A stretch of 64,000 bases of DNA. It comes from a virus. Lineage: Duplodnaviria; Caudoviricetes. The DNA lies in the IMG/VR virus record IMGVR_UViG_3300025018_000138, positions 1-64,000 of that record. The stretch is one strand, 5' to 3'. Positions within the stretch are counted from its first letter, which is position 1. The number at the start of each line of letters is the position of its first letter. Below, one piece after another: positions 5,558 to 52,652 of this stretch. The notes under the pieces were generated by a model that made no database searches, was not told the DNA's origin, and was given only the letters and a program-made list of their open reading frames with translations. The position numbers were made by a program, and so were the translations under genes.

Positions 5558-6421
5558 CTAAACTGCCATCTTCACTTTTTTAAGTGGTGGTAAAGGGTTA
5601 TACCCAATCAACTCAATGTCTTCAAACTGAATATTCAACAATTCTTCAAACGATAATTTTGATATGTCTTTTTTAAATTTTAAAATTGGTAATGGTGGAA
5701 TTTCTTTAGTTTCCCATCTTTCAATTAATTCATTGGCTACTTCGAGTTGATGATTATATAAATGGGTATCGCCTGATGTAAATACCAAGCTATCTACACC
5801 ATAACCTAAATATTCAGCAAATAATTGTAATACAAATCCGTATCCTGAAATGTTAAATGGTGCGCCATGATAAATATCCCAACTTCTCATATAAACCATT
5901 AATGATAAGTTGTTATTTGCTACATACCATTGCTGAAACATATGACACGGTGGTAAAGCACTTTCATCCAATTGTAACGGATTCCAATGAGTAACTATAT
6001 GCCTACGTGAATCGGGATTGCGCTTTAAATTAAAAAGTAATTCTTTAATTTGGTCATAACCATCTTCTTTAGTTTTCCCACCAAAATTTCTCATTTGCCA
6101 TCCATATCCTTTGCCCATATCACCTTCGGGTAAATAATTCAAACCTCTTTCATCTAAAAATTCTCTTGTAGTATTTCCAACCCAAATATTAATATTTTTA
6201 TCTTCGAGTTTTTTTGTTTGTGTGTCTCCACGTAAGAAAAACATCATTTCTTCAACTGCTATTCTAAATGGTATTTTTCGAACAGTCATCAATGGAAATC
6301 CTACCTGCATATTCCATCTTAATTGCCTACCAAATACTGAAATCGTACCAGTACCTGTTCTATCTGATTTTACAGTTCCATTTTCTAATATATCTTCAAT
6401 TAATTCTTTATAGTTTTTCAT
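5558..6421 (-). CDS. thyA: Thymidylate synthase
   Basis: DRTGTGT, ALPPCH catalytic Cys, RSWD, PFNI, GDTHLY motifs. Confidence 0.97.
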   Translation of the reverse strand: MKNYKELIEDILENGTVKSDRTGTGTISVFGRQLRWNMQVGFPLMTVRKIPFRIAVEEMMFFLRGDTQTKKLEDKNINIWVGNTTREFLDERGLNYLPEGDMGKGYGWQMRNFGGKTKEDGYDQIKELLFNLKRNPDSRRHIVTHWNPLQLDESALPPCHMFQQWYVANNNLSLMVYMRSWDIYHGAPFNISGYGFVLQLFAEYLGYGVDSLVFTSGDTHLYNHQLEVANELIERWETKEIPPLPILKFKKDISKLSFEELLNIQFEDIELIGYNPLPPLKKVKMAV

Positions 6422-17661: not shown

Positions 17662-18909
17662 ATGCAACTATCGGAACGACATATTATCAAAGAAGACCAT
17701 CTTTATTTTAAAGAATGTGATAACATTACTTTTAAATCAAAGAACCTTTATAATTCCTGTCTATATACCATAAGACAACCATTTATAAATGATAATGTCA
17801 ATGTTTCATTCGATTTGCATCATTTAATTAAAAACCATGAAGCATATAAAGAACTTCCTGCTAAAGTATCTTCGAGTGTTATTCTAATGGTTCAAAAGAA
17901 TTTTAAATCTTATTTTAAAGCTACTTCTGCGTTTTACAAAACACCAGAAAAATTTAAAGGGAAACCCAAATTACCTTATTATTTAAACAAATTAGATGGT
18001 AGATTTGTCGCTTCATACACGAATCAAGCTATTTCCAAAATTTCTTTCAATAAATACAAAAAGATTAAACTATCTAATACAAATATCGAATTAAATACAA
18101 AAATTAAACAATTTACTGATATAGATTGTGTTAGAATTGTACCTAAACTTGGATATTTTGTTATTGAAGTTATTTATACTATCCCCGATACTCCTTTATT
18201 GGAAGATAATAACAACTATTTAGGAATAGATTTGGGAATAAATAACTTAGCTACATTATCATCAAATGAAAAAAGTTTTAAACCAATAATAATCAATGGC
18301 AAACCATTAAAGTCGATAAACCAATTTTATAATAAAAAGTTATCAAAGATAAAATCGACATTAGAAGTAAGAAATAAAAAAAGTAAAAGTAAAAAACTTT
18401 ATAAGTTAACTAATAAAAGACATTTTAAAGTGGAAACTTATTTACATAAAGCAAGCAAAGAAATTGTTAAATTAGCAAAAAACAATAACATAAATACAAT
18501 AATCGTTGGAAAAAACGAACAATGGAAACAAAATATTAACATCGGTAAAGTTAATAATCAAAAATTTGTTTCCATTCCTCATAGTAGATTTATAGAAATG
18601 ATACAATATAAATGCGAAAAAGAGGGTTTAAACTTCAAAATAAATGAAGAAAGTTATACATCAAAAGCATCATTCTTAGATTTAGATGAAATTCCTACTT
18701 ATAATTCAAAAAATAAGGAAACTTATAATTTCTCAGGATATAGAAAATATCGTGGATTATATAAATCAAAAATAACAGGAAAACAGATAAATGCTGATGT
18801 GAATGGAAGTTATAATATAATAAGAAAAGCAATTCCAAATGTCTTTAAAAACGATGGAATAGAGGGTGTAGGAGTACACCCAATAATCAAACAAATAAGT
18901 TTTAATTAA
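17662..18909 (+). mobile_element. tnpB: IS200/IS605-family TnpB RNA-guided endonuclease, no TnpA nearby
   Basis: LGIDLGINN (RuvC I), NEESYTSKAS, INADVNGSYNI (RuvC III); inserted opposite to flanking genes. Confidence 0.92.
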
Positions 18910-21102: not shown

Positions 21103-21936
21103 TCATTTATTAGTTGGGATTAATTTCATACCATAATTATCAATTTCATCTGATAATTCTAAACCATCGATACGAATCAATTTATTATTTTTAAAAGGTT
21201 TATAATTTACTTCATGATGCCATCTATCATATCTCCAAACCTTTTTAACGACATCGGGGTGTTGAGACACTAAAGAGTCTACGAATTCACTTCTATGCTC
21301 ATCAGCTTCATATATGGGAGTATTACCACCACTTGTAGTCATTGTTGCATCTTTATCACCTGAGAATGCATTAAAGTTTACCGTACAATATCCATCTTTA
21401 AGCATACGTAAACAAATATCAGTATCATCATTGAAAATACCTCTCCATTTATAAGGGAGTTCATTGTTTACTAAACTCATAGAATATACTCTACTGTTTA
21501 AAATATATGGTGGTCTACCATCAGGTATAGCATAATTCATATAGTTCAACCCTGCCATAGAAACATTAGTATATCTATCAACAAAATCTTCTACGCATCT
21601 AAATATCACATGTGTTAATACTTTATTCCTTTTATTGTTATTTAATCTATAAAAAGCTTTAACATTATCATCAAATTGCCAATGTCTTTTATGACCTTCT
21701 GATATTGAATGTTCTTTAATCCAATTCCTTGTAGTTACTAATTGGCTTGATTCATTCGGTTTTGAATAAGGCAAAACCAATATTTGATTATCACTTAATA
21801 CGGTTTTATATAACTCATATTCTTGTGGTTCAATTACTACTCTAAAATCTGCATTCATTTCTAATAATGCATTTACAGTTTTTCTAGAATTAAATCTACC
21901 TTTAGTTGGTATATAAATTGGATATTTATTCTTCAT
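21103..21936 (-). CDS. TET-associated glycosyltransferase-like (TAGT/GREB1-like) protein
   Basis: PIYIPTKGR, RNWI, WQFDDN, WRGIFNDDTD, GGNT pattern of the phage TAGT family. Confidence 0.7.
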   Translation of the reverse strand: MKNKYPIYIPTKGRFNSRKTVNALLEMNADFRVVIEPQEYELYKTVLSDNQILVLPYSKPNESSQLVTTRNWIKEHSISEGHKRHWQFDDNVKAFYRLNNNKRNKVLTHVIFRCVEDFVDRYTNVSMAGLNYMNYAIPDGRPPYILNSRVYSMSLVNNELPYKWRGIFNDDTDICLRMLKDGYCTVNFNAFSGDKDATMTTSGGNTPIYEADEHRSEFVDSLVSQHPDVVKKVWRYDRWHHEVNYKPFKNNKLIRIDGLELSDEIDNYGMKLIPTNK

Positions 21937-23075: not shown

Positions 23076-23104
23076 AATATACTTAAACAGACAATAAATG
23101 TCAA
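23076..23104 (-). promoter_or_regulatory. Promoter TTGACA-N17-TATATT
   Basis: Consensus match with 17-nt spacer. Confidence 0.65.
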
Positions 23105-23123
23105 TACGAAATTTTAAAAAATG

Positions 23124-23200
23124 TACCCACGACAAGATTCGAATCTTGTATGTATCCATTACACTTTCGACACGTTCGTAGCGTGAGGTGATACGTGGGC
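23124..23200 (-). tRNA. Non-canonical tRNA-Arg(ACG)-like gene, copy 1 (anticodon arm precedes D-like arm)
   Basis: GCCCACG/CGTGGGT acceptor; CACG-CTACGAA-CGTG anticodon arm; then GTGT-AATGGAT-ACAT; T arm ACAAG-ATTCGAAT-CTTGT. Confidence 0.75.
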
Positions 23201-23201
23201 A

Positions 23202-23237
23202 TATGTTTTTATCACCATTCCTCGTCCAATCGAGTCT
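23202..23237 (-). repeat. 36-bp exact repeat, copy 1 (copy 2 at 24464-24499)
   Basis: Minus strand AGACTCGATTGGACGAGGAATGGTGATAAAAACATA is identical at both sites. Confidence 0.9.
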
Positions 23238-23258
23238 AAAACTATGACATTTGATAAA

Positions 23259-23585
23259 TTATCTAAATGTAATAGTTTTAGTTTCAATTGGACTTCCATC
23301 GGAATTCTTTTCAACAATGTTTAATTCTCTTTCCATTTCCCATAAAAGTTCTTCCATTTTAAGTTGTAACTGCTGTACCTTGTTGTAATCAATTTGTCTT
23401 GATGGTGTCATTTTATTTTGTGTTTGTTTAACACAATTTGGACTTGCACCTGATAACAATGCAATTGATAGCAGTGTTCTGAAATTTGAATGTTCACTTC
23501 CAATACCTCTATCATTTGATAATGATATTGATAAGTTTACTTTTTGTTTTTTAACTTCTATTTTGTCAAGAGAAACGGCTTTCAT
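23259..23585 (-). CDS. Hypothetical protein between the duplicated tRNA-Arg(ACG)-like genes
   Basis: 108-aa ORF preceded by promoter at 23627-23655. Confidence 0.6.
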   Translation of the reverse strand: MKAVSLDKIEVKKQKVNLSISLSNDRGIGSEHSNFRTLLSIALLSGASPNCVKQTQNKMTPSRQIDYNKVQQLQLKMEELLWEMERELNIVEKNSDGSPIETKTITFR

Positions 23586-23626
23586 ATTTTTAATCCTTTG
23601 TGTGTTTGGTTACTTACTACATCACT

Positions 23627-23655
23627 AATATACAAACAAAAACATCAAAAGTCAA
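23627..23655 (-). promoter_or_regulatory. Promoter TTGACT-N17-TATATT
   Basis: Consensus match with 17-nt spacer. Confidence 0.65.
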
Positions 23656-23682
23656 CCCTTTTTATTAAAATTTTAAAAAATG

Positions 23683-23759
23683 TACCCACGACAAGATTCG
23701 AATCTTGTATGTATCCATTACACTTTCGACACGTTCGTAGCGTGAGGTGATACATGGGC
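23683..23759 (-). tRNA. Non-canonical tRNA-Arg(ACG)-like gene, copy 2
   Basis: Identical to copy 1 except C6>T, which gives a T-G pair in the acceptor stem. Confidence 0.75.
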
Positions 23760-24056
23760 ATATTAATTATTTTGTATCTGCATCTAATTGTTTTACTAAT
23801 TTGTAAAAAGTATCTTTATTAATTCCATGTGTTAACATTATCAATGCAGTATATTCATGTTTGTTGTACATATATTTATTATCAACAGCAAGTGTAGTAT
23901 TATTATGCTGTGTTTGTACTGATTGTATTAATGGATTTTCTATGTTAAATATTGTTTTCATATAGTGAATTATTAGTTGATTAAAAAAGAAACATATCAA
24001 ATTACTGCTTTACCTATCAATGATTAATATCAAGGTTCTGTACTTTCTTCTTATTT

Positions 24057-24177
24057 CGTTGCGTATTTAACGCCTACGACTTATAGATTTCCTCCGAGTG
24101 CACCTTCCTATATTTGCGCAGTAGGCGATGCTCTTACGGTCAGCACTATTAAAGTCTTGGCAAGCTACTCCAAGTCA
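24057..24177 (-). ncRNA. Candidate pseudoknotted ncRNA downstream of tRNA-Arg(TCT)
   Basis: GC-richer non-coding stretch; GACTTTAATAG/CTATAAGTC crosses CGCCTAC/GTAGGCG; extra hairpins CTTGG/CCAAG and TGCT/AGCA. Confidence 0.45.
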
Positions 24178-24197
24178 TAATAAGATATGTTTAACTG

Positions 24198-24269
24198 TAC
24201 TCAGTATTGGAATCGAACCAATATTAAAGGCTTAGAAGTCCCTTGTACTATCCATTGTACGAACTGAGC
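24198..24269 (-). tRNA. tRNA-Arg(TCT)
   Basis: GCTCAGT/ACTGAGT acceptor, loop CTTCTAA, T loop TTCGATT. Confidence 0.9.
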
Positions 24270-24341
24270 ATAAAAAGCAGTAACATAATATCATCACGAC
24301 ATGATGTTACTTATTCCTAATGATATAGGAATATAATCGAG

Positions 24342-24463: not shown

Positions 24464-24499
24464 TATGTTTTTATCACCATTCCTCGTCCAATCGAGTCT
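24464..24499 (-). repeat. 36-bp exact repeat, copy 2
   Basis: Identical to 23202-23237. Confidence 0.9.
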
Positions 24500-24752
24500 T
24501 ATTTTAATAATGATAAATTATATTCATTTAGATATTGTTCAACATATTTTTTATCAAGTTTGATATTAACACTGACAATATGACCCGATGAATTATGTTT
24601 GTATCTATTAAATAATTCATCTGATTCTATATCGTGAAAAACATCAATAAATTCAAAATCCACATCATGTTGTTTCTTACTTTTATATGCAAGAAATTCT
24701 TTATATTCATCGACTGTTATATATGGCATAGTATTCCAAAAGTGATAATTTG

Positions 24753-32787: not shown

Positions 32788-33429
32788 ATGATACTAATCG
32801 AACAACAGATTGATTCACAATCATTAGCTATGTTACTAAAATGTCGAACTCAATTGATTAATTTAATTAATTCATTCAAACCTTATTGTAATAATTATTT
32901 TTATATTTATGGTGGGTTTATACGAGATTTAATATCTGGGTTTAAACCAGTTGATATTGATATTAATATTGCCGACAGTAATGATAAAAATCGTGTTATT
33001 AAGTACCTATCCAAAACACATGATATTTCATATGAATCAGCTTGGGTAACTCGTTACAAGTCAAAAATGGGTTTACCAAAAACAATGTATGATATTGCAT
33101 CCAATTTTAAAACACCAACGGAATTTATATCAAATTCCGATTTTTCAAATAATGCTATATTATTTGATTCCAATTATGATTTGTTTTGTTTGGACTCGAC
33201 TATATATGCAAATACGAATAGAAAATTAATTTTAAAACCAATTGAATCTAATAGTCCTATGATTTTAGCATATAGAGCAGGTAAACTAATTCAAAAAGGG
33301 TTTGTATATAAATCCGAAAATCCTATAGACTTGATTAAAGATATAGAATATCAATTTGAACTATATACAAACCCAATCGATATTTATAAAGTTAATTTAT
33401 CCATTAACGATAGAAATGTATCACGTTGA
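32788..33429 (+). CDS. Class II nucleotidyltransferase head-domain protein
   Basis: YIYGGFIRDL, VDIDI, SDFSNNAI resemble CCA/poly(A) polymerase motifs. Confidence 0.6.
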   Translation: MILIEQQIDSQSLAMLLKCRTQLINLINSFKPYCNNYFYIYGGFIRDLISGFKPVDIDINIADSNDKNRVIKYLSKTHDISYESAWVTRYKSKMGLPKTMYDIASNFKTPTEFISNSDFSNNAILFDSNYDLFCLDSTIYANTNRKLILKPIESNSPMILAYRAGKLIQKGFVYKSENPIDLIKDIEYQFELYTNPIDIYKVNLSINDRNVSR

Positions 33430-34439
33430 AAATTTCCAATTTCAGCACCTACTAATGTTTTAGGATAATCAACTCCTAATGCTTTGTACAACAATTGTAC
33501 AATACTTACGAAAGATTCATCCAATTTACATAACATGTTAACATTGTTCATAACAACTCGTCTATTTTTCCAAATAAATAATTTTGACTCGTTTATATCA
33601 TCTACATAACTATCAATCATAATATAGTTACCATAAAATTTAGATACTTGAGCAACTTCTTTTTTGATTGGTAATGAATCAATGAATGAATCATCAAACA
33701 TACTAAATAAAAACGCAAATGAAGCATCAACATCATGGTCAATACACTCTTGAACTTCATCAATTCCCAACGATACGTCATCGATGAAACCTACATTATA
33801 TAATAATACTTTTGGGATGAAATTAAATGTAGTAATACATTTAGCAAATTCATCCAAGATTCTTTCCATTGATAATACTTTATCCAATTTAACAGTATCA
33901 AGAATTTTTTCAATTGCCAATTTAGTACTTGCATCAAATGTCAAACCATATTTAACATAGAATCTAAAGGCTCTAATCACCCGTAAATAATCTTCTTCAA
34001 ATCTGTGATACGGATTACCAACAGTTTTTAAAATATTATTTTCCAAATCTGATTGTCCATCAAACCAATCTAATATTTTTGTTCCATCAAAACCCATCGC
34101 ATTTATTGTAAAATCTCTACGTTGAGCATCTTCATAAAATGAATTGGTGAATTCTACTGTTGCACGTCTACCATCAGTACCCACATCTTTTCTAAATGTA
34201 GTATGTTCTACATGAACCCCGTGAATTATAAATGTGACCGTTCCATGCTCTATACCAGTATCATATGATGAAAAAGGTAATAAATCTTTAATTTCCAATG
34301 GTGTATATGCTGATGCTACATCGATATCATGTGCTTCACGATTGAGTAACATATCCCTTACACAACCACCAACAGCAATTACTTCGGGTGCATATTGATG
34401 AATGGCATGTAAAATTAATTCGATATTCGGGGTTGTCAT
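33384..34439 (-). CDS. cca: tRNA nucleotidyltransferase (CCA-adding enzyme)
   Basis: VGGCVRD, HDIDV, GIEHGTV, EDAQRRDFTINAM, EDYLRVIRAFRF. Confidence 0.9.
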   Translation of the reverse strand: MTTPNIELILHAIHQYAPEVIAVGGCVRDMLLNREAHDIDVASAYTPLEIKDLLPFSSYDTGIEHGTVTFIIHGVHVEHTTFRKDVGTDGRRATVEFTNSFYEDAQRRDFTINAMGFDGTKILDWFDGQSDLENNILKTVGNPYHRFEEDYLRVIRAFRFYVKYGLTFDASTKLAIEKILDTVKLDKVLSMERILDEFAKCITTFNFIPKVLLYNVGFIDDVSLGIDEVQECIDHDVDASFAFLFSMFDDSFIDSLPIKKEVAQVSKFYGNYIMIDSYVDDINESKLFIWKNRRVVMNNVNMLCKLDESFVSIVQLLYKALGVDYPKTLVGAEIGNFQRDTFLSLMDKLTL

Positions 34440-36556: not shown

Positions 36557-38230
36557 TTAAATAACAATCGCTTTAATATCGTTGAGTACTGCTTTTGGGT
36601 CAAACTCAACTTTTTTAATCAGTTCATAGATATCTTGTGTATATCCTTCGAGAGAAAACACACGTGGGTGTTTACTATTAAACATTTCTGTTGGATAACC
36701 ACAAACATTTATACTATAAACATAGGTATTACCATTCAGTTTTTCATATTCTTTAAAAGAATTTATTACCGAATCTTTACCTTGCATATCACTAATGATA
36801 AATACTCTATCATATCGTCCTTTTAATGATGGAAAGATAGTATCAAACGCAGTACCATAACCAACAGACCCTTGTTTTGATGCAATTACTTTTTTAATAG
36901 TATTTACAGAATCCAAAGGATTTATATTAATAGGTTGAGTATAGTTTGCAAAATGATATACATCTGCATTTGTAGCTTTCGCTAAAGTTGATGCAACCAA
37001 TGATGCTTTTTCGATTGCTGATTTACTACCTTGTTTTTTATTTGCTAAAGTAATCAAACTTGTCATAGAACCTGAGCTATCTAATACTACAGCAGTTTTA
37101 CCTGTGAAGTAATCTTCTAAATTTGGTATTGATAATTCATATGCTTTATTTAATGCAGTTAATATTGAACCTAAATCACTTGGGCTATGTTCTTGTAACA
37201 GAAACTCCAATGCCAAATCTATTTGGTGTGGAAACACTAATGATTTTTTGATAAATTCTGGTTCAATTAGTAAAGCAGATACTTTTTCTTTTAATGTACT
37301 ATGTCCAAGTTTAATGATATTGTTTAAGTTTCTTAACAATGCCAAGTACCCAATTTTTTTAGTATCAATTAGCTCTACAAAATTTTCACCCTTTAAATCA
37401 TCCAATTCAACTTTAGCTTGCTCAACACTTAATTCACCTGATGCCACTTTTGCAGAAACATCTTGACCCGATTTGGTGTTTTTATCTTCAACAGTATTGA
37501 ACTGTTTTAATAAACCTAACGTTAATGCAAACAATGTTGGGATAGTTACTTCTCCATCATCACTAATATTTCTTGTTAGTTTATGTGCTTGTTCTTCATA
37601 TAATACATGCCCTTTGACTGCTTTAAGTAATTTAGCTTTAGGTACAGATACTACTCCTTGAATTTCGGTTTCCCGTGGGTGTACTAACTTGACAATATTC
37701 AATAAAGAAATACTAGAAGTTTTCAATTGGTATTTAGCCAATTGGTATTTATCAGCATTTTCAATCACAGATTTGAATCCACGTTTGATAGCATTTGATA
37801 ATTTCTTACCGTTATTTAATGCCATATATGCACCTGCGATTTCCATCATATCATCTAAACGATATACAACTCCACCGCGATTTTCACCACGAACACGTTT
37901 AGTGAAGAAATGAGTTCCTAATTCGGTACCACTAAGATATCTAGCTAATACTGCTGATGCAAAATGTGTTGTTGCACGTTGTCCTACGACTGAACGTACA
38001 TAAACAATTGCTTTGGCTACCAATTCTTTATCACCAATTTTATCAATTAATGATAATATTCGTGCTTCTCTTGTTTCACTTGTTTCATAAAATGTATTAT
38101 CTACACCTGTAGCAAGAATTCCTACTAATTCTACGATTGGGTCTTTTGCAAAACCGTTTCCGTTTTCATATGTAGTTACATTTGGTTCTGCTTTAGTAGC
38201 AGATACTTGGTGTGAGTTATATTTTCCCAT
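36557..38230 (-). CDS. rsr: TROVE-domain Ro60/Rsr RNA-binding protein with C-terminal vWA domain
   Basis: TFYET, YQLAKY, YLALLRNLNNI, VVLDSSGSM MIDAS, FIISDMQ. Confidence 0.9.
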   Translation of the reverse strand: MGKYNSHQVSATKAEPNVTTYENGNGFAKDPIVELVGILATGVDNTFYETSETREARILSLIDKIGDKELVAKAIVYVRSVVGQRATTHFASAVLARYLSGTELGTHFFTKRVRGENRGGVVYRLDDMMEIAGAYMALNNGKKLSNAIKRGFKSVIENADKYQLAKYQLKTSSISLLNIVKLVHPRETEIQGVVSVPKAKLLKAVKGHVLYEEQAHKLTRNISDDGEVTIPTLFALTLGLLKQFNTVEDKNTKSGQDVSAKVASGELSVEQAKVELDDLKGENFVELIDTKKIGYLALLRNLNNIIKLGHSTLKEKVSALLIEPEFIKKSLVFPHQIDLALEFLLQEHSPSDLGSILTALNKAYELSIPNLEDYFTGKTAVVLDSSGSMTSLITLANKKQGSKSAIEKASLVASTLAKATNADVYHFANYTQPININPLDSVNTIKKVIASKQGSVGYGTAFDTIFPSLKGRYDRVFIISDMQGKDSVINSFKEYEKLNGNTYVYSINVCGYPTEMFNSKHPRVFSLEGYTQDIYELIKKVEFDPKAVLNDIKAIVI

Positions 38231-40647: not shown

Positions 40648-40734
40648 TGCGGTTCGAAAGATTCGAACTTTACGCCACCAACCCCACTTAGTTTTTGACA
40701 ACAGTTTTACAGACTGCCGTGGGGAACGAACCGC
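40648..40734 (-). tRNA. Non-canonical tRNA-Tyr(GTA)-like gene (anticodon arm precedes D-like segment; 8/4 acceptor/T)
   Basis: GCGGTTCG/CGAACCGC, GCAGT-CTGTAAA-ACTGT, then AAC-TAAGTGGG-GTT, T arm AAAG-TTCGAAT-CTTT, A73. Confidence 0.75.
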
Positions 40735-41148: not shown

Positions 41149-41270
41149 AAGGAGAAATATAAAAAGTGTGTTCCTCTTACGAGGTCGAGTGGAATTGAAC
41201 CACTGAAGTTTATTTTCAAGATAAATGCCCAACCATTGAGCTACGATGTAACACTTTTAAACGCTACCTT
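41149..41270 (-). ncRNA. Y-RNA-like ncRNA 5 enclosing unpermuted D, anticodon(TGA) and T arms
   Basis: Family stem AAAAGTGT/ACACTTTT; GCTC-AATGGTT-GGGC; TTTAT-CTTGAAA-ATAAA; AGTGG-TTCAATT-CCACT; only 3 bp of acceptor, then CCTC-GTAA-GAGG. Confidence 0.7.
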
Positions 41271-50054: not shown

Positions 50055-52652
50055 TTATTCTGTCTCAATATCTTCACCGATAATTTCTTCAATCGAAATT
50101 GAAGCATCGGTAGTAAGAATCAATCCTGCAATCGAAACTGCATTTAATAAAGCAGATTTTGTAATCTTAAATGGGTCAATAATACCCATCTCAAACATAT
50201 CTCCATTAGTATTATTTCTAACATCTAATCCCATGTTTACATTAGAATCCTCAGTGAATCGCTTTACAAATTCTCTAATATCATTTTTACTATAACCTGC
50301 ATTTTCTAATATGGTCTCAAATGGTTTTTTTAATGAATAAAATAATATATCATATGCTAAATTTTTTTCTATTGATTTATTAATATATTTTGATGGAGAA
50401 TATTCTGTTGATATTTTCAACAATGGAATCCCACCACCTGCTACAATACCATACTCAGTTGCAGATTTAGTAGCAAATAATGCATCTTCAATTCTATCCT
50501 TTTTCTCTTGTAATTCTACTTCAGAATTTGCACCAACTTTGATGATGGATACACCATTTGTAAAATTAGCATAACGTTCATTAATAGCATTTCTTTCAAA
50601 CATTGATAATTTTGAGTCATTGATTAAAGATTCTAATAATTCTTTTCTATCATTGTATTCTTTAACTTTTGGAATACCACCGATGATAACAGAATTCTCT
50701 TTTTTACTTATAATTCGTTCAGCTTGACCTAAGTAGTCCATCGAAATATTTTTAATAGAATGTCCAAGTTCGGGAGTTATGAATGTAGCACCCGTAGATA
50801 CTGCAATGTCCTTCATAATCTCTTTTCTATTATCTCCAAATGATGCAGCTTTAATCAGACAAACTTTAATCACTCCACTTAATTTATTCTGAGCTAATAC
50901 TCCTGCTACTTCCGCTTCAAAATCTTCAGCAATAATAACCAATGGTTTTCCTGATGATACTACACCTTCAAGCACAGGTAATAATTCTTTAGCAGTTGAT
51001 AAAGTACCTGCATATACCATGACAAACGTGTTGTTTAATTCTGCTACCATTTTTTTCATGTCAGTAACAAAATAAGAAGAGAAATAACCTCTATCAATCT
51101 GCATACCCTCGACATGTGACAAATAAGTTTCATCATTTTCTGAATCTTCAACTGATACATATCCACCGACACCAACCTTGGATATAGCTTTAGCAATGAT
51201 AGAACCTAGAATGGTATCTCCATTTGCAGAAATAGTTGCTACTTGACGTAGATGTTCTTCTGAATCAATATTTTTTTTCATTGATTCTAATTTTTCAACT
51301 ACATCTACTGTTAGTAAATCCAATTCTCGTTTCAATTGAATTAAATTCATAGATTGGTTTGATGATTTAATTAACTCAAATGCTTTATGAAGAATTGCTT
51401 GTGTTAATACAGTTGCAGTAGTTGTATTGTGTGTTAAAATGAAATTATCAGTGAAATAAAGTTTATCGTTATTGCTGACTTTTATACAACGCATTGGAGT
51501 ATATACATCAGTAGGAGTAATAGATACTATTTTGTTTCCATATTTATACCCTTTCAATTGTATAAATCTATGAATAGGATTATAGGAATAAGAATTGTCA
51601 TCACTATCTCTTGTATGAAATTTGAAATTTAAAGAAATGCCTAAACTATAACATAATACTTCAAAGTTTCTTGCTAACCTTCCACTTACGGTACTAAATA
51701 CAAATCTACCTCGTTTATTTTTATAACCACCCATGTCAAGTAAACCTTGTAATAAATTTTCTCTTGTTGTATAATCATTATATAGATATTCATCTGGAAT
51801 AAATTTAGTAAAACTATTTACACCACGTAAATTAAGTTGTTCTAAAATTTCTGATAAGGATTTACCATATAATTTAACTCTAAAACTATTACTTTTTTCT
51901 ACATGAGTTACATCTTTTCGTACACCTTCGGGTAGAATCAATTTGTCAATGATATGCTGCTTTTTAAAACCTAAAGATAACTCTATAGTTTCTCCACTTA
52001 AACTTCCATCGCCTAATAGTACACCTAGTGTGTAAGGGTCTATGGGTACAGATTTCTGTGGAAAATTGACACCTTCTGATTGCACATAGTATCCATGTCT
52101 ATTATTTTTCATTGTTATTCTACCAGAGTCTATTAAAGCACGTGTGGACATAGACTTCTTAGCACCATAATTAGTTATTACCGTCCATATATGAGTATCA
52201 TCACAGTCGACCACTCTACCATCAGCAAATTTCACTTGATGTATTTGTAAATTACCTTTTTCATACACTTCTTCTACTGTTTGTACAGTATTATTAGTAC
52301 CATTGATTAAATCACCCTTTTTAATTTCAGCCATAGTAGTCCAACCATTTGGTGTGGAAATTTTAGACCAAAGTGGTTGACAACCGTCACCTGCATTATC
52401 GGCAGTTTTTTCAGCTACGGATTTGATTAAATCCGCACCCATATTTTCGATTGGGTCTTTAAGTATAATGTGTTTCGCAACAGTTACCCCATCTTTAGTA
52501 ATTAGTGGTAGTTGCATTTCTCGTTGAATGATAACATTCTTACCCGATGCACCAAGCGTTGATTTAACTGCATTAGCTAATTTGTCAACGCCTGATTTTA
52601 ATTTATGACGAGTTTCTACATCGTATGATATATGTTTAATTATCTGTTTCAT
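50055..52652 (-). CDS. groEL: Chaperonin GroEL interrupted by an intein
   Basis: TKDGVTVAK, AGDG|TTTATVL, GMQIDRGY, EKKDRIEDA, GIIDP. Confidence 0.95.
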   Translation of the reverse strand: MKQIIKHISYDVETRHKLKSGVDKLANAVKSTLGASGKNVIIQREMQLPLITKDGVTVAKHIILKDPIENMGADLIKSVAEKTADNAGDGCQPLWSKISTPNGWTTMAEIKKGDLINGTNNTVQTVEEVYEKGNLQIHQVKFADGRVVDCDDTHIWTVITNYGAKKSMSTRALIDSGRITMKNNRHGYYVQSEGVNFPQKSVPIDPYTLGVLLGDGSLSGETIELSLGFKKQHIIDKLILPEGVRKDVTHVEKSNSFRVKLYGKSLSEILEQLNLRGVNSFTKFIPDEYLYNDYTTRENLLQGLLDMGGYKNKRGRFVFSTVSGRLARNFEVLCYSLGISLNFKFHTRDSDDNSYSYNPIHRFIQLKGYKYGNKIVSITPTDVYTPMRCIKVSNNDKLYFTDNFILTHNTTTATVLTQAILHKAFELIKSSNQSMNLIQLKRELDLLTVDVVEKLESMKKNIDSEEHLRQVATISANGDTILGSIIAKAISKVGVGGYVSVEDSENDETYLSHVEGMQIDRGYFSSYFVTDMKKMVAELNNTFVMVYAGTLSTAKELLPVLEGVVSSGKPLVIIAEDFEAEVAGVLAQNKLSGVIKVCLIKAASFGDNRKEIMKDIAVSTGATFITPELGHSIKNISMDYLGQAERIISKKENSVIIGGIPKVKEYNDRKELLESLINDSKLSMFERNAINERYANFTNGVSIIKVGANSEVELQEKKDRIEDALFATKSATEYGIVAGGGIPLLKISTEYSPSKYINKSIEKNLAYDILFYSLKKPFETILENAGYSKNDIREFVKRFTEDSNVNMGLDVRNNTNGDMFEMGIIDPFKITKSALLNAVSIAGLILTTDASISIEEIIGEDIETE
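51426..52382 (-). mobile_element. 319-aa intein with LAGLIDADG homing-endonuclease region
   Basis: Starts CQP after GDG, ends ILTHN before T; LGVLLGDGSL block; second block GLLDMGG. Confidence 0.92.

What the first reader, a model, noticed from the sequence alone, without database searches (positions are those of the whole stretch)
23124..23759. Arm-swapped tRNA-Arg(ACG), present in two copies
Seen: the 77-nt gene reads acceptor, TATCACCT, anticodon arm (CACG-CTACGAA-CGTG), TCGAAA, D-like hairpin (GTGT-AATGGAT-ACAT), T arm (8-nt loop), acceptor, ACA. The D-like loop matches the AATGGATA D loop of this phage's canonical tRNA-Arg(TCT) but lies 3' of the anticodon arm. The two copies differ only by a pairing-preserving C>T change. 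No canonical Arg(ACG) gene is in the window, and leader A contains a CGT codon. Inference: a functional tRNA with a topology I do not recognise among described non-canonical tRNAs (D-armless, allo-tRNA 8/4 or 9/3, permuted).
Basis: partly seen in the sequence, partly recalled or inferred. Interest (0 to 1): 0.9.

Follow-up and report, generated by a model that had tools for sequence, protein, structure and literature searches.

The report
Rewired phage arginine tRNA, two copies
The two 77-base repeats are very probably working arginine tRNA genes of a widespread, phage-only tRNA design that is not a cloverleaf (the anticodon hairpin sits inside the helix that replaces the D stem), which gene finders miss and which I found described in no paper.

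Summary
Both copies exist as described on the minus strand (23124-23200 and 23683-23759) and differ by one pair-preserving C>U. ARAGORN and Rfam miss them. They are not chance. I collected more than 100 homologues from phage contigs and metagenomes, and none from 185,579 cellular genomes scanned with one motif.

The proposed 'D-like hairpin' does not covary (54% paired). Instead a 3-bp helix (nt 11-13 with 37-39; 100% paired in 71 sequences, four pair types) encloses the anticodon hairpin. The D-loop-like motif UAAUGGAUACAU is a single-stranded connector leading to the T arm. The connector keeps an R15:Y48-type tertiary pair that covaries (A:U 59, G:C 10).

- Every member carries an Arg or an Ile-type anticodon.
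- All Arg members have A after the GG (the A20 determinant of ArgRS). All Ile-type members have U there and discriminator A.
- Rewired Arg genes almost never repeat a neighbouring canonical Arg anticodon (1 of 34; about 8.9 expected).

In this phage ACG would serve the CGU/CGC/CGA codons, 40% of Arg codons. A CCA-adding enzyme gene lies nearby.

Caveats: the T loop has 8 nt, which I saw in no other member, and there is no RNA evidence.

This scan has reported the same family before on other genomes.

The parts
23124..23200 (-). Copy A of the rewired tRNA-Arg(ACG), 77 nt. Element position p is window coordinate 23201-p.
   Evidence: Sequence. Covariance model R1 scores it 78.7 bits, E 2.4e-19. 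Not called by ARAGORN or Rfam.
23683..23759 (-). Copy B, identical to copy A except U6 in place of C6 (U.G instead of C:G).
   Evidence: R1 scores it 76.6 bits.
23194..23200 (-). Acceptor stem, 5' strand (nt 1-7). It pairs with nt 70-76 (23125-23131). The discriminator A77 is at 23124.
   Evidence: 97.8% paired across 71 homologues, and all 7 pairs show double changes.
23188..23190 (-). Stem I, 5' strand (nt 11-13, CAC). It is preceded by the invariant U8 A9 U10 (23191-23193).
   Evidence: Pairs with nt 37-39. 100% paired in 71 sequences. Pair 11:39 reads CG 36, AU 19, GC 15, UA 1. RNAalifold predicts the helix independently.
23171..23185 (-). Anticodon hairpin: stem nt 16-19 with 27-30, 7-nt loop CUACGAA, anticodon A22 C23 G24 at 23177-23179. 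U15 and U31 form a conserved mismatch on top of the stem.
   Evidence: The four pairs covary. U33-equivalent and A37-equivalent are invariant. Pair 15:31 is unpaired in 55 of 71 sequences.
23165..23168 (-). G33 A34 A35 A36, the invariant 3'-side bulge between the two helices. C14 can pair with G33.
   Evidence: Invariant in alignment A3, although the search pattern required it. Some divergent members found by the covariance model lack it.
23162..23164 (-). Stem I, 3' strand (nt 37-39, GUG).
23150..23161 (-). Single-stranded connector U40-U51 (UAAUGGAUACAU). By inference it is the D-loop equivalent: A41=A14, A42=R15, G44 G45=G18 G19, A46=A20, A48=A21, and C49 A50 U51 = positions 46-48.
   Evidence: The A42:U51 position covaries as A:U 59, G:C 10. 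The base after GG is A in all Arg members and U in all Ile-type members.
23132..23149 (-). T arm: stem nt 52-56 with 65-69, and an 8-nt loop A+UUCGAAU. The extra A57 (23144) occurs only in this phage's copies. The 18 nt form a perfect palindrome.
   Evidence: The covariance-model alignment places the A as an insertion.
23076..23104 (-). Sigma-70-like promoter (TTGACA, 17-nt spacer, TATATT) just after copy A and its U-rich trailer. A second one (TTGACT, 17-nt spacer, TATATT) at 23627-23655 follows copy B.
   Evidence: This is a consensus match only.
23259..23585 (-). 108-aa ORF lying between the two copies. It belongs to no known family.
33384..34439 (-). Phage gene of the tRNA nucleotidyltransferase / poly(A) polymerase family, a candidate CCA-adding enzyme. 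It is relevant because neither copy encodes CCA.
   Evidence: PF01743, E 4.8e-27. The function is inferred.

Best explanation
Each copy encodes an elongator tRNA-Arg with anticodon ACG. It belongs to a phage-borne family of tRNAs whose core is rewired.

Shown by comparison of homologues:
- The RNA has a normal 7-bp acceptor stem and a T arm.
- After U8 A9 U10, a short helix (nt 11-13 with 37-39) takes the place of the D stem and encloses the anticodon hairpin.
- The D-loop sequence follows as a 12-nt unpaired connector into the T arm.

Inferred:
- The stack from anticodon loop to junction has the same 10 layers as a canonical tRNA (4 bp, U.U, C14:G33, 3 bp, U10.U40, against 5 + 1 + 4).
- The connector rebuilds the usual elbow: U8:A14, R15:Y48, and GG docking on the T loop. 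The molecule therefore still forms an L shape.
- It is cut out of the surrounding transcript and receives CCA from the phage's own nucleotidyltransferase or from the host's.
- Host ArgRS charges it through A46 (the A20 equivalent), C35, G36 and A73.
- Host TadA deaminates A34 to inosine.
- It then reads CGU, CGC and CGA, a codon box for which the phage has no other tRNA.

Why phages keep this design is not known.
For: 1. Homologues. The same architecture occurs in Streptomyces phage Mildred21, in 20 distinct sequences found with one motif, in 52 more found with a pattern that does not include the D-loop motif, and in 88 covariance-model hits.
2. Covariation. On 71 sequences, 95% of cells are paired and 19 of 21 pairs show double changes. 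No shuffle out of 500 reached the observed value on four of the five whole-structure measures (3 of 500 did for the count of further pair types). Shifted registers reach at most 46% paired. RNAalifold finds the same four helices unaided. Mutual information ranks exactly these pairs first.
3. Tertiary signature. The R15:Y48-type pair covaries (A:U 59, G:C 10).
4. Anticodons. All are Arg (ACG, GCG, UCG, CCG, UCU, CCU) or Ile-type (UAU, GAU, CAU), with U33 and A37 invariant.
5. Identity nucleotides. All Arg members have A after GG. All Ile-type members have U there and discriminator A. Anticodon position 35 against this position is the strongest non-helix correlation. This matches the published bacterial determinants: Arg needs A20, C35, U/G36 and A/G73; Ile needs U20, A35, U36 and A73 (PMC9976931, Table 1).
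6. Context. Members lie in phage tRNA clusters on the same strand as their neighbours, and many are followed by a genomic CCA.
7. Complementarity. Only 1 of 34 rewired Arg genes shares its anticodon with a canonical Arg gene in the same locus. Shuffles give 8.9 +/- 2.3, p about 1e-4.
8. This window. The canonical set has Arg(UCU) three times and no CGN reader. CGU, CGC and CGA make up 203 of 512 Arg codons. A nucleotidyltransferase gene is present.
Against: - There is no direct evidence here or elsewhere that any member is processed, charged or used on the ribosome.
- The window's copies carry an extra A in the T loop (8 nt) that none of the other 100-plus members collected has. The arm is a perfect palindrome that could close into a 6-7 bp hairpin, so these particular copies could be impaired.
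- The top anticodon-stem pair is a U.U mismatch, leaving effectively a 4-bp stem.
- 52 of the 71 sequences in the covariation alignment were pre-filtered for pairing in stem I and the anticodon stem. Their percentage paired is therefore inflated for those two helices. The variety of pair types, the acceptor stem, the T arm and the tertiary pair were not filtered.
- The 10-layer and elbow model is inference from secondary structure only.
Confidence: 0.8

Rival explanations
1. A tRNA look-alike that is made but not used in translation. It could be a decoy that soaks up a host tRNA-Arg-directed nuclease or modification enzyme, or a partner RNA of the phage's Ro60-like protein.
For: The window encodes a TROVE/Ro60-like protein inside the tRNA cluster. 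Other tRNA-like RNAs exist in this window. The rewired core might not fit EF-Tu or the ribosome. Phage tRNAs are known to counter tRNA-cleaving defences (PMC10264068 and PMC11555353, abstracts).
Against: Members have open 7-bp acceptor ends, often with a genomic CCA, and no long closing stem of the Y-RNA type. Nine different anticodons occur, and they complement rather than copy the neighbouring canonical set. That pattern is expected of decoders, not of decoys for one target. The synthetase identity nucleotides switch together with the anticodon class.
Confidence: 0.1
2. The family is functional, but this phage's two copies are decaying or inactive because of the extra base in the T loop.
For: The 8-nt T loop and palindromic T arm occur only here among all members collected. 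Two family members with ruined acceptor stems (L082, L089) show that pseudogenes do occur.
Against: Both copies keep every helix. The only difference between them preserves a pair. They score 77-79 bits on the family model. They would be the phage's only reader for 40% of its Arg codons. The repeat assembles without difference in two other metagenomes.
Confidence: 0.08
3. One reading: two independent hairpins in swapped order, with the anticodon arm first and a true D-like hairpin (nt 37-40 with 48-51) second.
For: In this phage's sequence GUGU can pair with ACAU.
Against: Across 22 homologues that helix is 54% paired with no double change. Pair 38:50 holds in 3 of 22 and pair 39:49 in 7 of 22. 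The same 5' strand pairs with nt 11-13 in 100% of 71 sequences. The single-sequence minimum-energy helix 7-11 with 45-49 also fails (77% paired, no double change).
Confidence: 0.02

Closest known systems
Canonical bacterial and phage tRNA-Arg (cloverleaf, Rfam RF00005), for example this window's tRNA-Arg(UCU) at 24197-24269
   Same: 7-bp acceptor stem, T arm with a UUCGAAU loop, 7-nt anticodon loop with U33 and A37, the D-loop sequence AAUGGAUA with A20, an R15:Y48-type pair, U8 and A9, a length of about 76 nt, and a position in tRNA clusters.
   Different: There is no D hairpin 5' of the anticodon arm. The strand that pairs with nt 11-13 lies 3' of the anticodon hairpin, so that hairpin is nested inside the D-stem equivalent and the D-loop motif is not enclosed by any helix. 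Rfam and ARAGORN do not recognise it.
D-armless mitochondrial tRNAs (for example metazoan mt-tRNA-Ser(AGY) and nematode mt-tRNAs; reviewed in PMC7609411)
   Same: No D hairpin. It is a three-way junction of acceptor stem, long anticodon limb and T arm.
   Different: The mitochondrial forms have a D-replacement loop 5' of the anticodon stem and have largely lost the GG/T-loop elbow contacts. Here the 5' connector is only U8 A9 U10, the long connector is 3' of the limb, and it keeps the full D-loop consensus. The family serves bacterial-type translation in phages.
Allo-tRNAs and 8/4 or 9/3 tRNAs of bacteria and phages (Mukai et al. 2017, PMC5389517)
   Same: Non-canonical tRNAs that also occur in phage tRNA clusters.
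   Different: Those change the acceptor/T-stem lengths but remain cloverleaves. Here the stems are 7/5 and it is the order of the strands that differs. The paper mentions no such Arg or Ile form.
Circularly permuted tRNA genes (PMC3978253)
   Same: The tRNA parts come in an unusual order in the gene.
   Different: There the 3' half precedes the 5' half, and processing restores a normal cloverleaf. Here the acceptor strands are in normal order and the rearrangement is internal and remains in the RNA.
YrlA-type Y RNAs with a tRNA-like module
   Same: A phage-encoded RNA with tRNA-like parts, and a Ro60-like gene is present in this window.
   Different: There is no long Ro-binding stem. The acceptor end is open, the anticodon loop is real, and the synthetase determinants are in place.

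Membership tests
Canonical cloverleaf tRNA (Rfam RF00005) | 7-bp acceptor stem plus discriminator | tested here: met
   nt 1-7 pair with 70-76. 97.8% paired in 71 homologues, and all pairs covary.
Canonical cloverleaf tRNA (Rfam RF00005) | D hairpin (positions 10-25) lying 5' of the anticodon arm | tested here: not met
No such hairpin exists. The partner strand of nt 11-13 lies 3' of the anticodon hairpin.
Canonical cloverleaf tRNA (Rfam RF00005) | Anticodon arm with a 7-nt loop, U33 and purine 37 | tested here: met
   Loop CUACGAA. U and A are invariant in 71 sequences. The stem is 4 bp plus a U.U mismatch.
Canonical cloverleaf tRNA (Rfam RF00005) | T arm of 5 bp with a 7-nt UUCRANY loop | tested here: inconclusive
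   The family has a 5-bp stem and a 7-nt UUCGAAU loop. The window's two copies have an extra A, giving 8 nt.
Canonical cloverleaf tRNA (Rfam RF00005) | Reaches the Rfam gathering score (29 bits) | tested here: not met
   No tRNA match at the element even at E<=10. The Mildred21 homologue reaches 32 bits only with the D arm deleted and a 17-nt 'variable' insert.
Bacterial tRNA-Arg identity | A20, C35, G/U36 and A/G73 (PMC9976931, Table 1) | tested here: met
   A46 after G44 G45, then C23, G24 and A77. All Arg-type family members have GGA. That A46 occupies the position of A20 in three dimensions is inferred.
Bacterial tRNA-Arg identity | Arginylation by ArgRS and A34-to-I editing by TadA | not testable with these tools
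   Needs biochemistry.
Rewired (nested-anticodon-arm) phage tRNA family, as defined here and in earlier notes of this scan | A helix of nt 11-13 with 37-39 that encloses the anticodon hairpin, followed by the D-loop motif as a connector, with a high score on model R1 | tested here: met
   78.7 and 76.6 bits, against 31 or less for canonical tRNAs.
D-armless mitochondrial-type tRNA | D-replacement loop 5' of the anticodon stem, with reduced elbow contacts | tested here: not met
   The 5' connector is 3 nt. The conserved GG-containing connector lies 3' of the limb.
Allo-tRNA (8/4 or 9/3) | Acceptor stem of 8-9 bp with a T stem of 4-3 bp | tested here: not met
   The stems are 7 and 5 bp.
YrlA / Y RNA | Long terminal stem that binds Ro60 and closes the tRNA-like module | tested here: not met
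   The acceptor end is open, CCA follows in many members, and there is no Rfam match.

The most novel reading that the evidence does not exclude
It would be kept because it stays acceptable to synthetases, EF-Tu and the ribosome while escaping host (or phage) enzymes that recognise or cut the canonical D-arm/anticodon-stem core. That would make it a structural route of defence evasion, beyond the anticodon-loop mutations already known.
Probability: 0.25. Interest if true: 0.95.

Novelty: new variant of a known kind. Interest (0 to 1): 0.85.

Why it matters
The cloverleaf is regarded as universal for tRNAs that serve bacterial-type ribosomes. The known exceptions are mitochondrial, or change only stem lengths. 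Here a large, covarying, phage-only family keeps every tRNA function mark (acceptor stem, T loop, GG motif, Levitt-type pair, anticodon loop, synthetase determinants) but joins the strands in a different order.

If these RNAs are charged and decode, several things follow:
- The L shape can be built from a different secondary structure.
- ArgRS and IleRS can read position 20 outside a D hairpin.
- Standard annotation undercounts phage tRNA sets. In GenBank phages the members are unannotated, or in one case labelled tRNA-Phe.
- The family offers a natural scaffold for orthogonal tRNA design.
- It gives a testable lead on phage escape from tRNA-targeting defences.

Tried and rejected
- Megablast of the 2.2-kb region against GenBank phages found no match.
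- The relaxed motif GAAA..AATGGATA..TTCGAA in IMG/VR gave 52 loci but no member beyond those already in hand.
- The strict motif in 185,579 cellular genomes gave 11 hits, all false: none has an acceptor stem or an anticodon hairpin. This covers only one subclade's motif.
- The single-sequence minimum-energy fold (helix 7-11 with 45-49) is not conserved.
- The ORF between the copies and its small neighbours have no Pfam or PHROG family.
- Public runs: the DNA occurs in aquifer, groundwater, cold-spring and hot-spring metagenomes. Contigs of two metatranscriptomes cover only 23989-24196 and not the element, which says nothing about tRNA expression.
- A contig from a hot-spring run joins 23667 to 23109. 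At depth 3.5 across a 96-nt repeat I do not read this as a real variant.
- A mutual-information scan found no further long-range pair or pseudoknot beyond the helices, the tertiary pair and the link between anticodon position 35 and position 20.
- A tree of 71 members on 68 columns is poorly resolved. Ile-type members cluster (4 changes against 13.9 in shuffles), but neither a single nor a multiple origin can be decided.
- MAFFT plus RNAalifold on the nine Tyr-type sequences misaligned the variable parts and did not recover their enclosing helix, so I checked it by eye and by single folds.
- Literature searches found no description of this layout.

Full report
**What is there**

On the minus strand, window 23124-23200 (copy A) and 23683-23759 (copy B) hold the same 77-nt sequence. 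They lie in a 96-nt direct repeat, 23109-23204 and 23668-23763, with one mismatch. The mismatch is C6 in copy A and U6 in copy B, opposite G71, so the pair is kept.

ARAGORN finds 25 tRNAs in the window, all on the minus strand. None is at the element and none is an Arg(ACG). Rfam finds nothing there even at E<=10.

**Homologues**

A sensitive blastn against GenBank phages hit a gene of Streptomyces phage Mildred21 and six related records. In Mildred21 it is annotated tRNA-Phe(gaa). Aligned, it has the same layout with compensatory changes in three helices, and its loop reads CUUCGAA, that is anticodon UCG, Arg. Mildred21 also carries an ordinary tRNA-Phe(GAA). The label is therefore an error, probably caused by the invariant GAAA that sits near the usual anticodon position.

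Exact-pattern scans then gave:
- five further lineages in IMG/VR;
- about 25 true members in metagenome contigs;
- only false hits in one genome for each of 185,579 bacterial and archaeal species.

A covariance model (R1) found 88 matches, 70 of them distinct, in 100 of those loci.

With one member as the blastn query, 48 GenBank phage records (Streptomyces and Microbacterium phages) hold a match. All but one of the 40 records listed have no annotation under it; the exception lies under an HNH endonuclease gene.

ARAGORN called none of 104 members in non-redundant loci.

**Structure**

On 22 sequences my structure is 94.7% paired, with double changes in 18 of 20 pairs. It consists of the acceptor stem 1-7 with 70-76, stem I 11-13 with 37-39, the anticodon stem 15/16-19 with 27-30/31, and the T arm.

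On 71 sequences:
- stem I is paired in every sequence, with four pair types at 11:39 (CG 36, AU 19, GC 15, UA 1);
- the acceptor stem is 97.8% paired and the T arm 98.3%;
- shifted registers reach at most 46%.

RNAalifold finds the same four helices unaided. A mutual-information ranking puts exactly these pairs first. The helix 7-11 with 45-49 from the single-sequence fold is not conserved.

One caveat applies. The 52 later sequences were selected for pairing in stem I and the anticodon stem, so the percentage paired in those two helices is inflated. The variety of pair types, the acceptor stem, the T arm and the tertiary pair were not selected for.

**The connector is a displaced D loop**

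After stem I come U40 and a variable but recognisable D-loop consensus (UAAYUGGAYACAU and relatives). Its second purine covaries with the last base before the T stem (A:U 59, G:C 10, one G:U, one exception). This is the pattern of the R15:Y48 Levitt pair of ordinary tRNAs. U8, A9, the GG and the T-loop sequence are invariant or nearly so.

Counting layers from the anticodon loop to the junction gives 10 in both subtypes of the family. One subtype has 4 bp, U.U, C14:G33, 3 bp and U.U. The other has 5 bp, G.A, C:G, 2 bp and U.U. That equals the 5 + 1 + 4 of a cloverleaf.

This count, and the equivalences A41=A14, G44 G45=G18 G19 and A46=A20, are my inference from the secondary structure. They are not shown.

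**Evidence that these RNAs are charged and decode**

- Every member has an Arg anticodon (UCU, ACG, UCG, CCU, GCG, CCG) or an Ile-type one (UAU, GAU, CAU).
- The base after GG is A in all Arg members and U in all Ile-type members, and all Ile-type members have discriminator A.
- Anticodon position 35 against this base is the strongest correlation outside the helices.
- The published bacterial determinants are A20, C35, U/G36 and A/G73 for Arg, and U20, A35, U36 and A73 (among others) for Ile (PMC9976931, Table 1).
- Members lie within phage tRNA clusters on the strand of their neighbours, and many are followed by CCA.
- Of 34 rewired Arg genes that have a canonical Arg gene in the same locus, one shares its anticodon. 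Shuffling gives 8.9 +/- 2.3, p about 1e-4. A decoy would be expected to copy its target. A decoder fills gaps.

**This phage**

The record is an IMG/VR contig of 74.8 kb, estimated 36% complete. It has 28% G+C and occurs in aquifer, groundwater and spring metagenomes.

Its canonical tRNAs include Arg(UCU) three times but no reader of CGN. In 69 long ORFs the Arg codons are AGA 266, CGU 113, CGA 75, AGG 36, CGC 15 and CGG 7. An ICG tRNA would therefore serve 40% of them.

Neither copy encodes CCA. A gene of the nucleotidyltransferase family (PF01743) lies at 33384-34439.

Copy B starts 7 nt after the stop codon of a 77-aa ORF, and copy A starts 58 nt after the 108-aa ORF. Each copy is followed by a U-rich trailer and a strong promoter-like site. 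The tRNAs are therefore probably cut out of longer transcripts.

In an independent cold-spring sample the repeat assembles at twice the depth of its flanks, consistent with two copies there too.

**What weakens the case for these two copies**

Their T loop has an extra A (8 nt), which I saw in no other member. The arm is an 18-nt palindrome that could close further. No RNA data bear on them.

**Known or new**

Full-text searches, and targeted reading of the two reviews or primary papers on non-canonical tRNAs, found no such layout.

Earlier notes of this scan report the same family on other genomes, with the same reading and the same negative literature result. I reached my reading before opening them. 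What I add here:
- the Ile-type members with the A20/U20 switch;
- the covarying Levitt-type pair;
- the anticodon-complementarity test;
- the finding that this window's copies have an aberrant T loop;
- a third rewired gene in the window, the Tyr form described below.

My mutual-information scan shows none.

**Verdict**

The fold needs correction. The interpretation as a functional tRNA-Arg of an undescribed topology is well supported by comparison of homologues but has not been tested biochemically.

Noticed in passing
window 40648-40734 (-): An 87-nt gene with the same nested layout and anticodon GUA (Tyr). The acceptor stem is GCGGUUC/GAACCGC, and the helix CCCCAC/GUGGGG encloses the hairpin with loop CUGUAAA. 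ARAGORN does not call it, it is absent from Rfam's matches at the gathering threshold, and ARAGORN calls no tRNA-Tyr in the window. Pseudomonas phage Rembedalsseter (L236:394-480, unannotated, ends in CCA) and IMG/VR loci L259, L271 and L298 keep the enclosing helix through compensatory changes (CCUGUU/AACAGG, CCUUAC/GUAAGG, CCUUUC/GAAAGG).
   Followed up: partly
IMG/VR loci, e.g. L145:3207-3283, L192:5750-5825, L118:4462-4538, L215:3169-3245: The rewired family is not only Arg. 17 of 70 distinct covariance-model hits have Ile-type anticodons (UAU 13, GAU 2, CAU 2), always with U after the GG and discriminator A. A weak tree suggests that Arg and Ile forms are interleaved, needing at least 2 changes of type.
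   Followed up: partly
L001:1503-1578 (Streptomyces phage Mildred21, record 91367-91442): This family member has anticodon UCG (Arg) but is annotated in GenBank as tRNA-Phe(gaa). The phage has a separate canonical tRNA-Phe. The record holds two more places that match a family member by blastn (3 in all), and the best of them has no annotation under it.
   Followed up: partly
window 36557-38230 (-) and 41185-41246 (-): A 557-aa protein with a TROVE (Ro60-like) domain (PF05731, E 1.4e-7) lies inside the tRNA cluster. At 41185-41246 Rfam's tRNA model matches only positions 5-66 (44.5 bits). ARAGORN is silent there, and the match is flanked by GUGUU...AACAC. This may be a closed tRNA-like or Y-RNA-type partner.
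   Followed up: no
window 23989-24196: A non-coding stretch just downstream (on the minus strand) of tRNA-Arg(UCU) is the only part of the 1.4-kb region present in contigs of two aquifer metatranscriptomes. One contig lacks 24156-24168. Inverted repeats at 23994-24011 and 24274-24291 could close a long stem around the tRNA plus about 185 nt. The fold z-score is only -1.0.
   Followed up: partly
window 23202-23237 and 24464-24499: An exact 36-nt direct repeat. One copy lies directly upstream of rewired copy A. The other follows the stop codon of the 76-aa ORF at 24499-24729. In copy A's leader, GGUGAUA is complementary to UAUCACC (nt 8-14 of the tRNA).
   Followed up: no
window 17662-18909 (+): An IS605 OrfB/TnpB-like protein (PF01385 and PF07282) on the strand opposite to nearly all other genes of the phage.
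   Followed up: no
window 50055-52652 (-), 21103-21936 (-), 5558-6421 (-): An 865-aa protein whose C-terminal 440 residues are Cpn60/TCP-1 chaperonin-like; a TET-associated glycosyltransferase (PF20691); and a thymidylate-synthase-family enzyme. The last two hint at modified DNA bases.
   Followed up: no
L082:2470-2545 (-), L089:1869-1944 (+): Two family members keep the core helices but have ruined acceptor stems (4 of 7 pairs). They are probably pseudogenes.
   Followed up: no
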